Shown here piece by piece: positions 6,529 to 63,224 of a stretch of DNA of 64,000 nucleotides. Each line of letters opens with the position of its first letter. The stretch's first letter is position 1. The stretch covers positions 60,760,001-60,824,000 of the forward strand of contig OX597818.1 in NCBI GenBank assembly GCA_951406725.2, read 5' to 3'. The notes under the pieces were generated by a model. That model searched no databases. It saw only the letters and a list, made by a program, of their open reading frames with translations, and had not been told where the DNA came from. The stretch comes from Octopus vulgaris. Its lineage: Eukaryota. The translations under genes and the position numbers were made by a program.

Positions 6529-7536
6529 TAACGGGAAGCTTTATGAAAATAGACAAAAGACGAAGGCAGGTGGAAAACAAACAAACAATTGTATTAGTAT
6601 GGCGCTCAGGAAATATAAATAAAACAAGTCTTTAACGTTTCGAGCCTACGCTCTTCAACAGAAAGATACACAGAGAGAAAAAAACACAGAAAGAAGAAGA
6701 GAAAAAAATGCGTGCAGTAACTAACGAATCAACATGGCGATCTGATTTCGGCCAGAGGTCAAAGATCAAATATGAGACGCGAGAGCGAAATAAGGGGAGA
6801 TAATAGGGTTGATAATAGGGTTGAATGACCCTAGGATAGGTCTGGACAGGCGTATGTATGGGGTTGGTGTATGTATTAGTATGTATTAGTATGTATTAGT
6901 ACTATTAGTATGTATAAGTGTGTGTGTGTGTGTATGAGAGAGTATAAGTGCGTATGAGGGGTCTGGACGTGTGTATGTATAGGGTTGGTGTATGTATTAG
7001 TATGTATTAGTACGTATTAGTATGTATTAGTTGGTGTATGTATTAGTATGGCACATCATATATGATGTGATGTGTAAAGTCGTGTGGTGTAGTGAGGAGA
7101 AGAGGGGGAGGGGGAGAAGAGGGGGAGAAGAGGGGGAGACGGGGGGAAGAGGAGAGGGGGAAGAGGAGAGGAGGAAGAGGAGAGGAGGGGGAGATAGAGG
7201 GGGGAGAATGAAGGGGAGGAAGAGGGGGAGGAAGGAGGAAAGAGAGGGAGGGGAGAGAGAAGGGGAGAGGGGGGAAGAGGGAAGAAGGAGGGAGGGGGAG
7301 GAAGGAGGAAAGAGGGGGAGGGGGAGAGAGAAGGGGAGTGAGGGGGAGTGAGGGAAGGAGGGAGGGAGAAAGAGGGAAGAAGGGAAGGGGAGTAGGGGTG
7401 AAAGGATGAAGGACTGAAGAAGTAGGGGTCGGGGGGATAGGTGAGGAGGGGGGAGAGGGGGTTAGATGAGGAGGGGGGAGAGTTGAGACCAAATGGCGTA
7501 TAAGAGCGAAGAGAGAAGATTAATTCCTGTTCACGG
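6529..7536 (-). mobile_element. 5'-truncated Penelope-like element 3' end (copy B) with HHR-bearing terminus, in TA-rich microsatellite
   Basis: Direct repeat of 7623-8656; encodes the last GIY-YIG residues (REQELIFSLRSYTPFGLN), then a polypyrimidine tract and the HHR at 6629-6666. Confidence 0.85.
6629..6666 (-). ncRNA. Minimal type I hammerhead motif, A6U core variant
   Basis: UCUUU CUGUUGA A GAGC GUAG GCUC GAAA CGUU|AAAGA; stem I UCUUU/AAAGA, stem II GAGC/GCUC, palindromic ACGU in place of stem III. Confidence 0.75.
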
Positions 7537-7622
7537 AATATATGTATATATGTATATATATATATATATGTATATATATGTATATATATATATATATGTA
7601 TATATATATGTATATATATATG

Positions 7623-8744
7623 TAACGGGAAGCTTTATGAAAATAAACAAAAGACGAAGGCAGGTGGAAAACAAACGAACAATTGTATTAGTATGGCGCT
7701 CAGGAAATATAAATAAAACAAGTCTTTAACGTTTCGAGCCTACGCTCTTCAACAGAAAGATACACAGAGAGAGAAAAACACAGAAAGAAGGAGAGAAAAA
7801 AATGCGTGCAGTAGCTAACGAATCAACATGGCGATCTGATTTCGGCCAGAGGTCAAAGATCAAACATGAGACGCGAGAGCGAAATAAGGGGAGATAATAG
7901 GGTTGATAAAAGGTTGAGGGACCAGCTAATAGTGCGTAGGAGGGGTCTGGATGTGTGTATGTATAGGGTTGGTGTATGTATTAGTATGTATAAGGGTGTA
8001 TAAGGGTGTGTGTGTGTGTGTGTATGAGAGAGTATTAGTGCGTAGGATTGGTCTGGACGTGCGTATGTATGGGGTTGGTGTATGTATTAGTATGTATTAG
8101 TACGTATTGGTATGTATAAGTGTGTGTGTGTGTGTATGAGAGAGTATAAGTGCGTATGCGGGGTCTGGACGTGTGTATGTATAGGGTTGGTGTATGTATT
8201 AGTATGTACTAGTATGTATTAGTACGTATTAGTATGTATTAGTTGGTGTGTGTATTAGTATGGCACATCATATGTGATGTGATGTGTAAAGTCATGTGGT
8301 GTAGTGAGGAGAAGAGGGGGAGGGGAAGAAGAGGGGGGAGAGAAGGGGAGGGGAAGAAGAGGGGAGGAGAGGGGGAAGAGGAGAGGATGGGGGAGGAGGG
8401 GGATGAAGGAGGAAAGAGGGAGAGGGGGAGAGAGAAGGGGAGAGAGGGAGTGAGGGAGCAGAGGGAAGGGGAAGAGGGAGGGAGAAAGAGGGAAGAAGGG
8501 AAGGGGAGTAGGGGTGAAAGGATGAAGGACTGAAGAAGTAGGGGTCGGGGGGAAAGGATAGGTGAGGAGGGGGGAGAGGGGGGTTAGATGAGGAGGGGGG
8601 AGAGTTGAGACCAAATGGCGTATAAGAGCGAAGAGAGAAGATTAATTCCTGTTCACGGCGCAAACGGGAATCCGGATGGCCTCTGTGTAAGGACAAACCG
8701 AACACAGATAGGTGTTGCAATGAGTGACCGGTGGAGCGGAAATG
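7623..8744 (-). mobile_element. 5'-truncated Penelope-like element 3' end (copy A) encoding the GIY-YIG endonuclease C-terminus
   Basis: HFRSTGHSLQHLSVFGLSLHRGHPDSRLRREQELIFSLRSYTPFGLN at ~8604-8744 matches the PLE endonuclease pattern HF...H...L.V....R...E...I..L....P.GLN; flanked by (TA)n. Confidence 0.88.
7723..7760 (-). ncRNA. Minimal type I hammerhead motif, A6U core variant
   Basis: Identical to 6629-6666. Confidence 0.75.
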
Positions 8745-8841
8745 TATATATATACATATATGTATATATATATATATATGTATATATATATATATATATA
8801 ATATATATATATATATATATATATATATATATATATATATA

Positions 8842-9829
8842 TTAAGGTATGTAGAAAAATACAACATGGACAAGAACGTATAACTCTTAGAAGACGATAC
8901 AATAAACACGGACAGGACATTCGAAACCCTCAGTCTTCAGTCAAGAACCGGATCATCGTAGTAATTTCGGCTGATTAATCTTGAGATTACTAGATCACGG
9001 CCAGCCCTCCAAGAAAAACTAAGCAACGAGCATTAGAAAAACTAAGCTGGAAGCGTAGATTTCCTGGAAGAAGGATCGAATGCATACGAACACCAGGACA
9101 GCAAAAGGGACAGATATAAAAAAACAAAAAACAATAATGGAATACAGAAACATGAAATACAGAAGCATTAACGGTGAAAACAACAGTGTCTTACGACTGA
9201 TAACAAGCAAACAAATTTTTTCTCTGGCGCAATGGAAAAAGCCTTTATAGTGGCGGACGAAAACAGCGATGTTAACACGACGAGGGTCAGAAGCTGAAAG
9301 GCAGATTTCGGCCAACAGTCACGTGACAGAGAAGAGGGAAAAGAAAAGAAAGAGAAGCAAAGGAAGAGAGAGAGAGGAGAGAGAGAGAGGAGGGACAAAC
9401 GCAACAAAGAGAGAGAAGAGAGAGAAAGAAGGAATCAGAGAGGAGAAGGGATGGGTGTCGAAGAATGACCTGTGAGTGCAGAGCGAGACAAAGAAATAGG
9501 AGGGTAGTGGAAGACTAGACCAAAGAATCAGAGGAAAGAGAAGAGAAAAAGAGGATGAGTAGAGAGAAAAGAGAGAGAGGGGGACAGATCAAGTAAAAAT
9601 GAGAGAGAGAGAGAGAGACAAACAGAGAGTCGTACCAATTATTAAGAATATGTGCTCACATTAATGTTAAGGGGGGTACGGGGCGCCTGGAATATATGTT
9701 AAGGTATGTAGAAAAATACAACATGGACAAGAACGTATAGCTCTTAGAAGACGATACAATAAACACGGACAGGACATTCGAAACCCTCAGTCTTCAGTCA
9801 AGAACCGGATCATCGTAGTAATTTCGGCT
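8842..9829. mobile_element. Non-coding element in (TA)n with ~131-bp terminal direct repeats (PLE pseudo-LTR-like)
   Basis: 8842-8972 is near-identical to 9699-9829 (ttaaggtatgtagaaaaatacaac...gtaatttcggct); TA tracts on both sides. Confidence 0.75.
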
Positions 9830-9910
9830 ATGTATGTATATATATATATATGTATGTATATATATATATATATATATATATATATATATATATATATATA
9901 TATATATGTA

Positions 9911-10043
9911 CCGAGTATCAGAACAAAAACCCCTGGACACATTTTGCACACAAATATCAACTAATAATTATCTTAAATTTTATATCCCAGGGTATATTGC
10001 CTGTCGGGGTATTTGTCCGGGGCGGGATTCTGTCCTAATACCG
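9911..10043. mobile_element. Small MITE-like element with imperfect terminal inverted repeats
   Basis: 5' cgagtatcagaacaaaaacccc versus reverse complement of the 3' end, cggtattaggacagaatccc. Confidence 0.5.
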
Positions 10044-61593: not shown

Positions 61594-61795
61594 GTGGTCA
61601 GGTTGTGAGTGACTGGACTGGCCTCCCCATTTGAGTAGCTTTCTACTCTTCTGAAGAGAGTGTCTGGACATTCTGATGGACTAAGAGCAAGACCTGTCCA
61701 AGGGTTGAACAGCTCCCTTGTGGGGCCATCCGTTTGGGGAAGGCAGTGGCAATCCACCCTAATATTTTTGCCAAGAAAACCAAAGATACGGGAGC
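61594..61795 (+). mobile_element. RTE/BovB-related fragment
   Basis: ggaaggcagtggcaatccaccctaatatttttgccaagaaaacc resembles the RTE/BovB terminal motif. Confidence 0.5.
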
Positions 61796-61940
61796 TCACG
61801 CTTAATGGGAAAGATTTTCTTGTAGTGTCATTAACGCACTGTAATAGCGTACGATACCTGACGACGATGAAATGAATAAATATAAAGCAAAAGCGACAGA
61901 AACGGTGCACCGAAATCAATGATTTTCATAGGGAGTGGAA

Positions 61941-61978
61941 TATCCAACGTTTCGGAGAGAGAGTCTTTCATCCGGGTA
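61941..61978 (-). ncRNA. Degenerate minimal hammerhead motif
   Basis: UACC CGGAUGA AAGACUCUCUCUCC GAAA CGUU|GGAUA. Confidence 0.45.
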
Positions 61979-62087
61979 AAGGTGACAAGAAGGAAATTAA
62001 AATGAAGACTATGGAGTTTGAGATTGTCTTTAAAATTCAAATAATAATAGAAGTAAACATACAAAATGAGAGAGAAATAATCATAAG

Positions 62088-62458
62088 AGCAGGCGTGGCT
62101 GTGTGGTAAGAAGTTTGCTTCCCAACCACATGGAACTGAGTTCAGTCCTACTGCATGGCTCTTTGGTCAAGTGCCTTCAATAATAACTTTGCACCGAACA
62201 AAGCCTCCGAGGACGAAAACTAATAGAAGCCCGTCGTATATATATAATGTGTGTGCGTGTATTTGTCCCACCAGTATCGCTTGACAATCTGTTTCGGTGT
62301 GTTTACGTCCCTGTAACCTAGCGGTTCAGTAAAAAGACCAATAAAATAAGTACCAGGTTTGAAAACAATCAGTAGTAGGGTCGATTCATTCGACTAAAAC
62401 TTTTTCAAGTAGGTGCCTCAGCATGGCCGCAGTCTAATGACAAAAACAAATATAAAGA
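62088..62458 (+). mobile_element. SINE family A
   Basis: gcaggcgtggctgtgtggtaag...gagttcagtcc...cagcatggccgcagtctaatgac. Confidence 0.85.
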
Positions 62459-62789
62459 TACAAGGCATCTCAACATGGTTCTAATTTGTGCTTGATTTAA
62501 ATAGCGATTGCTATTAAACGCACTTTGTTGGGTGGAAAATGAGCGGCATTTCATCTCAGAATAAGGTAGCCAACTACTGTGCCATTTATATGAATAGACA
62601 CCTTCATTTTTCTTAGTGTGAGAAAGCTAACGAGATAAACAAACATATAGATAGATAAGTATATAAGACAGATAAATAAATACACACACTTATGTATATA
62701 TACTTACATATGTACATATCTGTGTGTGTGTGTACATATATATGTATGTATTATGCGTGTATGTGTACATGCCATATCACACCACATCG

Positions 62790-63224
62790 TGCACATTAGC
62801 ATTGACCACTTCCCAGCACACACGCCAGCGCACACTCTATTACTGACCACTTCCCAGCACCTACACCATCATCCACACACCTACACATGCCCACACGCAC
62901 ACGTCAATGTCACCAGCCACCTTCCACGCACACATACTCGCATGCGCACCTTCATTTTGGGATCACCACTACTTTATTATCTCCCCTTCTTCCCAGCCCT
63001 CCTGTGTGGCACCTCTGTCCGGTATTCGCCATGATAGATCGCTAGTCACTAAACCTTTTTCTATTTTCTCTCCCTGTTTATTTCTGTGTTCCTTTCTGTC
63101 GAAGAGCGTAGACTCGAAACGTAAAAGACTTTCTCACTTCCCAAGCGTTAAACTAATACATCTGTCTGTTGTTTACACACCCTTCTTCGTCTTTTGTTGT
63201 TTGTTTATTTTGTAAATTCTCACC
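62790..63224 (+). mobile_element. PLE 3' UTR and tail with HHR at 63092-63127 (CUGUCGA), ending in (TA)n
   Basis: ctgtccggtattcgccatgataga shared with 14275-14298; CUUU CUGUCGA A GAGC GUAG ACUC GAAA CGUA|AAAG. Confidence 0.8.

What the first reader, a model, noticed from the sequence alone, without database searches (positions are those of the whole stretch)
6629..63127. Hammerhead family whose consensus core is CUGUNGA (A6U), not CUGANGA
Seen: six copies (6629, 7723, 14184, 53771, 59217, 63092) have U at core position 6 while position 7 varies (U, U, A, U, C, C), and stem II and GAAACGUH are largely kept. One old copy (56906) has C. The sister family H2 (22916) has the canonical A6 with nearly the same stem II. 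Established: A6 is a normally conserved core residue. Inference: A6U is inherited across subfamilies rather than random decay, so it is either a natural attenuated variant missed by standard searches or a motif repurposed as an RT-recognition structure.
Basis: partly seen in the sequence, partly recalled or inferred. Interest (0 to 1): 0.78.

Follow-up and report, generated by a model that had tools for sequence, protein, structure and literature searches.

The report
Altered-core ribozyme in active Penelope retroelement
A recently active jumping-gene family with over 20,000 copies in this animal genome carries a small self-cutting-RNA motif in which one normally fixed letter is changed (A to U) in nearly every copy while the rest of the motif is kept, so it is likely a slowed-down ribozyme, though cutting is untested.

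Summary
Observation confirmed and extended. The motif is the minimal type I hammerhead in the pseudo-LTR of an autonomous Penelope-like retroelement (reverse transcriptase plus C-terminal GIY-YIG, Neptune/Nematis-type zinc-finger linker, (TA)n targets). Genome-wide, position 6 is U in 15,730 of 16,332 otherwise exact copies and A in 180. It is U in 97 of 100 copies found by flanks alone, and in all 20 long-ORF copies examined. Across five subfamilies only N7 and H17, the two positions catalysis leaves free, differ (2 of 28 columns, against 43 of 139 flank columns). So A6U is inherited, not decay, and the rest of the motif looks constrained. Cleavage is untested: published CUGA mutants have low activity, and I found no genomic footprint of cutting. 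Best reading (0.5): an attenuated, dimer- or protein-assisted hammerhead; main rival (0.3): a dead ribozyme kept as an RNA signal. The 'canonical' sister family is itself mostly U4C (9,958 against 6,023). Natural A6C is published; I found no natural A6U in print, but one key paper was unavailable. Unchecked scan notes report A6C and CCGUUGA cores in Penelope elements of other genomes. Verdict: new variant of a known kind.

The parts
7613..8753 (-). 5'-truncated Penelope-like copy: last ~56 codons of the GIY-YIG region, low-complexity tail, pseudo-LTR; flanked by (TA)n
   Evidence: blastn 94.8% to the full unit in L096 over 7613-8744; tblastn 94.6% over 8586-8753
6519..7536 (-). second 5'-truncated copy, head to tail with the first and separated by a (TA)n tract
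   Evidence: blastn to the L096 unit; sequence
7723..7760 (-). minimal type I hammerhead, core CUGUUGA (U6 at 7752), H17=U, youngest subfamily
6629..6666 (-). minimal type I hammerhead, core CUGUUGA (U6 at 6658), H17=U, youngest subfamily
14184..14219 (-). hammerhead, core CUGUAGA (U6 at 14212), in a short pseudo-LTR fragment (about 14075-14285)
53771..53808 (+). hammerhead, core CUGUUGA (U6 at 53779), H17=A, in a solo pseudo-LTR fragment 53690-53917 between (TA)n tracts
56905..56942 (-). old decayed copy, core CUGCUGA (C6 at 56934); stem II also degraded
59216..59253 (+). hammerhead, core CUGUCGA (U6 at 59224), in a solo fragment 59148-59362
63091..63128 (+). hammerhead, core CUGUCGA (U6 at 63099), one stem II mismatch
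22916..22950 (+). sister family H2 hammerhead, canonical CUGACGA, 3-nt loop II, stem I GUUU/AAAC (compensated against CUUU/AAAG of the U6 family)
18975..19009 (+). sister family H2 copy with U4C (CCGACGA)

Best explanation
The motif is the minimal type I hammerhead in the pseudo-LTR of a recently active Penelope-like retroelement whose source lineage fixed A6U early and kept it, and it likely still works as a slow, dimer- or protein-assisted self-cleaving RNA. Shown: the host element, the fixation of U6 and the constraint on the rest of the motif. Inferred steps: two motifs would pair through the ACGU palindrome to build helix III; U6 would lower the rate, as other changes at this position do; in the monomer U6 is predicted to pair with A15.1 and favour a closed hairpin by 0.2-2.4 kcal/mol. 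Slow cutting would be tolerated or even useful, because the 3' copy of the motif lies about 105 nt upstream of the element's 3' end, so early cleavage would cut the ORF off from where reverse transcription presumably starts.
For: All min-HHR features except A6 are present (consensus in the PMC4209133 supplement). Host element: RVT_1 E 1.4e-7 and a weak GIY-YIG hit, E 0.0066, below its cut-off; a C-x4-C-xx-C linker read in P0001; partial tandems in 14 of 20 long-ORF loci. All 20 long-ORF loci carry CUGUUGA. The two pseudo-LTRs of one insertion differ by 0.36 substitutions on average (11 loci) against 3.6 between loci, so insertions are very recent. Among 100 copies found without regard to the core, five subfamilies differ at 2 of 28 ribozyme columns (N7, H17) against 43 of 139 gap-free flank columns; Fisher p = 0.009 for all 28 columns and 0.0004 for the other 26. 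N7 takes all four letters between subfamilies, which none of the 139 flank columns does. H17 is A or U in 98 of 100 copies and G in 1. Stem I is compensated between sister families. Natural A6C hammerheads keep low but detectable activity (PMC3088659, PMC7151607), and a Penelope hammerhead cleaves only with the element's protein (PMC11167929).
Against: No cleavage assay was run and no RNA data were seen. [quoted passage not shown] Minimal PLE hammerheads are already weak. No excess of 5' ends at the cleavage site: 6 of 32 truncated insertions start there and 5 of 32 at the other TA in loop II, both explicable by microhomology to (TA)n (hand count, no positive control). Loop II and the bulged A are as invariant as the core, which catalysis does not require. 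Naiad elements form partial tandems and spread without hammerheads (PMC8557442), and cleavage was dispensable for insertion in vitro. The Fisher test treats columns as independent and the search fixed the motif length at 28 nt. U6 itself staying unchanged is not significant, since 96 of 139 flank columns also did not change.
Confidence: 0.5

Rival explanations
1. The ribozyme is catalytically dead and the sequence is kept for another job: a binding site for the element's RT-endonuclease, or a promoter or splice signal in the pseudo-LTR.
For: Loop II (GUAG) and the bulged A are invariant across subfamilies. U6 copies are predicted to close a U4.G16.2/G5-C15.2/U6-A15.1 helix: median pairing probability 0.86 in 62 U6 copies against 0.04 in 33 A6 copies with a 4-nt loop II. 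The sister family tolerates U4C in 9,958 copies. Cleavage was not needed for insertion in vitro. No cleavage footprint.
Against: The only two positions that change between subfamilies are the two that hammerhead chemistry leaves free; G17, which the NUH rule forbids (established knowledge), never became a subfamily letter. C3 is kept in 100 of 100 copies though it is unpaired in the predicted hairpin. The hairpin's advantage is small and depends on N7.
Confidence: 0.3
2. Functionless relic: A6U inactivated a dispensable ribozyme, spread with a successful source element, and the rest has simply not yet decayed in the source lineage.
For: Hammerhead-less PLE clades thrive, and their authors raise the possibility that hammerheads merely parasitise PLEs. 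After insertion the copies decay, most visibly at CpG sites.
Against: 0 of 26 columns other than N7 and H17 changed between five subfamilies, although the motif holds three CpG sites, while 43 of 139 flank columns did, including 25 of 50 purine-containing ones, plus 26 indel columns.
Confidence: 0.12
3. U6 is fully compensated (by a tertiary contact, the element's protein or a metal-ion preference), and the ribozyme is as active in vivo as its A6 relatives.
For: A6C variants cleave well in Mn2+ (PMC7151607). The U6 lineage outnumbers the sister motifs that share its stem II: 21,777 against 6,023 and 9,958.
Against: No second core change accompanies U6, and no rescuing double mutant was found in the CUGA region.
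Confidence: 0.08

Closest known systems
Minimal type I hammerheads (min-HHR) of metazoan Penelope-like elements (Cervera and De la Pena 2014, PMC4209133; read parts 1-2 of 4 and searched supplement file 2; file 1 not searchable)
   Same: Position in the pseudo-LTR, U-rich 5' flank, short stem I, extra nucleotide between A9 and G10.1, G10.1-C11.1 pair, no helix III, palindromic 15.2-16.2, many dispersed solo copies.
   Different: Their consensus is CUGANGAH and the one core variant they report is U3-A8. Here position 6 is U throughout an active lineage; no CUGU core turned up in the supplement file searched.
Bcep176 phage hammerhead A6C (Perreault 2011, PMC3088659, passages; Naghdi 2020, PMC7151607, parts 1-2 of 4)
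   Same: Natural substitution at core position 6; low but detectable activity reported.
   Different: C rather than U; a single phage locus against more than 20,000 retroelement copies; tested in vitro, whereas this one is not.
Neptune/Nematis-clade endonuclease-bearing Penelope-like elements (as described in Craig et al. 2021, PMC8557442, passages)
   Same: Single ORF with RT, CX2-5CxxC linker and C-terminal GIY-YIG; 5' truncation; partial tandems; (TA)n targets.
   Different: That paper treats canonical hammerheads as present throughout these clades; this lineage and most of its sister have non-canonical cores. Neptune versus Nematis was not resolved here.
Poseidon element PAc of Anolis (PMC11167929, passages)
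   Same: PLE hammerhead in the pseudo-LTR; the model for protein-assisted cleavage.
   Different: Different clade; its ORF starts inside the ribozyme, whereas here the first in-frame Met lies about 720 nt downstream of the cleavage site.

Membership tests
Penelope-like element, endonuclease-bearing | single ORF with RT and C-terminal GIY-YIG endonuclease | tested here: met
   P0001, 1092 aa: RVT_1 at 470-659, E 1.4e-7; GIY-YIG at 890-923, E 0.0066, below the curated cut-off; 346 relatives, many annotated with both domains
Penelope-like element, endonuclease-bearing | partial tandem forming pseudo-LTRs; 5' truncation | tested here: met
   14 of 20 long-ORF loci have a truncated upstream copy; window 6519-8753 is a partial tandem
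Neptune or Nematis clade | CX2-5CxxC linker between RT and endonuclease | tested here: met
   C-x4-C-xx-C read in P0001; definition from PMC8557442
Neptune clade specifically | RT phylogeny with named reference elements | not tested
   no named PLE references were at hand; the (TA)n target only points that way
PLE minimal type I hammerhead | stems I and II, extra base after A9, G10.1-C11.1, GAAA, palindrome, NUH | tested here: met
   stem I 4-5 bp, stem II 4 bp, ACGU palindrome, H17 A or U
PLE minimal type I hammerhead | core strand CUGANGA | tested here: not met
   U6 in 15,730 of 16,332 copies and 97 of 100; filed as a variant, not as a canonical member
Hammerhead ribozyme | site-specific self-cleavage after H17 | not testable with these tools
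   no assay; the genomic footprint test showed no excess and had no positive control
Rfam hammerhead families | match to a covariance model | tested here: not met
   no hammerhead hit at E up to 10 for the U6 copy or for the canonical A6 copy
Non-LTR retrozyme | non-coding tandem repeat with a hammerhead in each unit | tested here: not met
   copies examined are truncated 3' ends of a coding element with a 4.5-kb unit; short tandem arrays were not sought genome-wide

The most novel reading that the evidence does not exclude
Penelope lineages evolve brakes on their own ribozyme. A6U here, and U4C independently in the sister lineage, were selected to delay cutting of the 3' pseudo-LTR until the element's protein has bound, with the hypervariable N7 and the A/U switching of H17 tuning the rate. 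The genome would then hold a natural series of canonical, U4C and A6U ribozymes in related elements, in which the braked forms out-replicated the canonical one.
Probability: 0.2. Interest if true: 0.75.

Novelty: new variant of a known kind. Interest (0 to 1): 0.5.

Why it matters
What hammerheads do in Penelope-like elements is unresolved: published views range from processing the transcript to mere parasitism. Here a very recently active lineage spread with a core change that mutagenesis studies predict to be crippling, yet kept the rest of the motif, and natural A6 copies with the same flanks exist for a direct comparison. If it cleaves, the natural hammerhead core is looser than the descriptors in use, and CUGANGA-based censuses miss at least 21,777 motifs in this genome alone. 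If it does not, it is a ribozyme fold turned into an RNA signal. Either result is of specialist rather than broad interest.

Tried and rejected
Random decay: rejected. A6 copies as a separate modern subfamily: rejected; the deliberately sampled A6 copies are scattered among all flank types, except one small old cluster of five or six whose position, ancestral or reverted, the weakly supported FastTree trees could not settle (the IQ-TREE run timed out). The idea that U4C in the sister family strengthens the same alternative helix as A6U: rejected, pairing probability about 0.01 in 26 copies. The closed hairpin as a strong off switch: weak, 0.2-2.4 kcal/mol, and canonical or U4C H2 monomers have off folds of 2.6-3.1. 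Cleavage footprint in 5' truncation points: none beyond TA microhomology. A6U in other organisms' PLEs: 80 metagenome loci gave 18 hammerhead-like hits with one core mismatch allowed; none differed at position 6, two had U4C, three U3-A8 and one UUGAAGA; shuffled control 0. Public runs: four coded organisms hold the element and no other letter was listed at U6, but the known A7 and C7 variants were not listed either, so this is not evidence; no RNA holder on record was listed, and expression and splicing remain unexamined. The whole-window Rfam scan showed only microsatellite-driven miRNA hits among the 150 of 282 rows displayed. No solved-structure relative of P0001 at E up to 0.01. Literature searches for a natural A6U: 'hammerhead'+'A6U' gave one twister paper (listing only); the core strings CUGUNGA, CUGUUGA, CUGUCGA, CUGUAGA, CUGNNGA gave nothing relevant among 20 of 34 listed; searches added no such report. 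Lunse et al. 2016 (PMC5785218; about PLE hammerhead variants) is not held, and bioRxiv supplements are closed; either could already list this variant.
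Full report
Observation. The window is G000:C5:60760001-60824000 of a 2.8-Gb, microsatellite-rich animal genome; its repeat landscape resembles octopus, which is my recollection and comes from no call. With positions 6 and 7 free, the 27-nt motif has 16,332 exact matches and the reversed control none. Position 6 is T in 15,730, A in 180, G in 50 and C in 372 by subtraction. With loop II and the last two bases also free there are 21,777 U6 motifs. Because these searches condition on the rest of the core, I also searched by the stem I flanks alone: 18,602 matches, control 2. 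All of the first 100 were fetched; position 6 is T 97, C 2, G 1, A 0, and position 7 is T 34, A 33, C 20, G 13.

What it is. Upstream of the copy at 7755 the window encodes the end of a GIY-YIG domain. Searching the genome with that peptide gave 150 scored, identical matches. I fetched the 20 with the longest open frames (884-1200 residues; 13 above 1030), which by this choice all belong to the youngest subfamily. All 20 carry CUGUUGA in the downstream pseudo-LTR. Fourteen have a truncated upstream copy; 11 of these 14 upstream motifs matched my descriptor, all CUGUUGA, and 3 did not match and were not examined. The protein has RVT_1 (E 1.4e-7), a weak C-terminal GIY-YIG hit and a C-x4-C-xx-C linker. 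With (TA)n targets this is an endonuclease-bearing Penelope-like element of Neptune/Nematis type as defined in PMC8557442 (passages); the clade was not tested by phylogeny. The two pseudo-LTRs of one insertion differ by 0.36 substitutions in 335 nt (11 loci) against 3.6 between loci (55 pairs), so the U6 element moved very recently. The motif fits the minimal type I hammerhead of such elements in every feature but A6 (PMC4209133). Rfam detects neither this nor the canonical sister copy.

History of U6. Trees of the flanks alone, with the ribozyme removed, show a ladder of subfamilies ending in the long-ORF group; support for most nodes is weak. The sampled A6 copies are scattered over all rungs, as back-mutations after insertion would be, apart from one small old cluster. 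In 30 copies of an old flank type, position 6 is T 23, C 4, A 3. The sister families that root the tree have A6, so A6U most simply arose once near the base of this lineage; whether the old A6 cluster is ancestral or reverted is unresolved. For the conservation test, 89 of the 100 flank-found copies fell into five subfamilies defined by flank letters and 11 were left unclassed. The subfamilies differ at 2 of 28 ribozyme columns, N7 and H17, against 43 of 139 gap-free flank columns plus 26 indel columns (Fisher p = 0.009; 0.0004 for the other 26 columns). N7 takes four letters, which none of the 139 flank columns does, and purine-containing flank columns vary in 25 of 50, so misaligned pyrimidine tracts do not drive the contrast. 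Caveats: columns are not independent, the search fixed the motif length and flanks, and U6 alone staying constant is unremarkable.

How it most likely works. Shown: the element retrotransposes with U6, and the motif is constrained in the source lineage. The only positions that change are those catalysis leaves free (N7; H17 within the NUH rule, established knowledge), and stem I is compensated between sister families. That favours selection on a hammerhead fold. Against efficient cutting: all CUGA-region mutants but the 3-8 swap had low activity in a saturation study (PMC9901934, passages); A6C is slow in Mg2+ though active in Mn2+ (PMC7151607, parts 1-2; PMC3088659, passages); and these minimal motifs are weak even as dimers. 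Folding predicts that U6 pairs with A15.1 and closes the core in the monomer: median probability 0.86 in 62 U6 copies against 0.04 in 33 A6 copies with a 4-nt loop II, but worth only 0.2-2.4 kcal/mol. I therefore put 0.5 on a slow, dimer- or protein-assisted ribozyme, as shown for the Anolis element (PMC11167929, passages); 0.3 on a dead ribozyme kept as a signal; 0.12 on a functionless relic; 0.08 on full compensation. A reason why slowness could pay is inferred from the layout: the downstream motif's cleavage site lies about 105 nt before the uniform 3' end of insertions, so every long copy came from an RNA uncut at that site.

Results against my reading. Loop II and the bulged A are as invariant as the core. 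Truncated insertions show no excess of 5' ends at the cleavage site: the 100 listed rows collapse to 32 insertions, 6 starting there and 5 at the TA of loop II (hand count, no positive control). Hammerhead-less Naiads form the same partial tandems, so tandems do not imply cleavage and circularisation. No RNA evidence was obtained.

Context. The sister family is not a clean canonical control: U4C motifs (9,958) outnumber canonical ones (6,023). A third family with a longer stem II is canonical and makes up most of the first 100 of 8,629 hits (control 90). In 80 PLE loci from metagenome contigs, 18 hammerhead-like motifs all kept A6, so A6U is not general among related elements. Unchecked notes from this scan describe an A6C core and a CCGUUGA core in Penelope elements of other genomes; I did not test them, and they are leads only.

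Novelty and verdict. The element class, the motif class and natural variation at position 6 (A6C) are known. I found no report of natural A6U in the searches named under Tried and rejected, but Lunse et al. 2016, the largest survey of PLE hammerhead variants, could not be read (seen only as cited in PMC6765202, passages). Also consulted: bioRxiv 10.64898/2026.07.22.740005 (part 1 of 5 and passages) and PMC11014351 (passages), neither bearing on A6U.

Noticed in passing
window 18975-19009; genome-wide: Most of the sister family H2 carries U4C (CCGACGA): 9,958 motifs against 6,023 canonical ones. A second lineage-wide core variant in the same genome.
   Followed up: partly
window 53690 and 59148; many of L340-L439: By eye, the 5' ends of many short copies cluster at a TCGCCATG motif 75-90 nt upstream of the core; possibly a transcription start or a reverse-transcription stop. 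Not counted.
   Followed up: no
window 53720-53790 and equivalents: A long pyrimidine tract followed by AG runs into the core strand (a textbook YAG in the CUGUAGA subfamily) and resembles a 3' splice site; an intron ends next to the hammerhead in Drosophila virilis Penelope (PMC4209133). Untested.
   Followed up: no
L165, L169, L174, L310-L339: A third hammerhead family with a longer stem II and canonical CUGAUGA/CUGAAGA core, most of the first 100 of 8,629 hits; would serve as a positive control.
   Followed up: partly
window 59633-59670: Decayed copy of another short-loop A6 family (C3 lost).
   Followed up: no
L096:6600-6971; window 8292-8600: The element's reading frame runs on for about 100 residues of Pro/Ser/Leu-rich low-complexity sequence after the endonuclease, variable between copies.
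   Followed up: no
L214, L254, L253, L273, L263: PLE hammerheads in metagenome contigs with U4C (2), U3-A8 (3 hits in 2 loci) and UUGAAGA (1) cores.
   Followed up: no
window 11077-11628: Three tandem copies of a 184-nt repeat, 89% alike; other dispersed repeat families at 36127-39636 and 44273-44936.
   Followed up: no
G000:C18:76866133-76898787: Three A6 copies of the U6 lineage spaced about 16.3 kb apart, probably a segmental tandem duplication.
   Followed up: no
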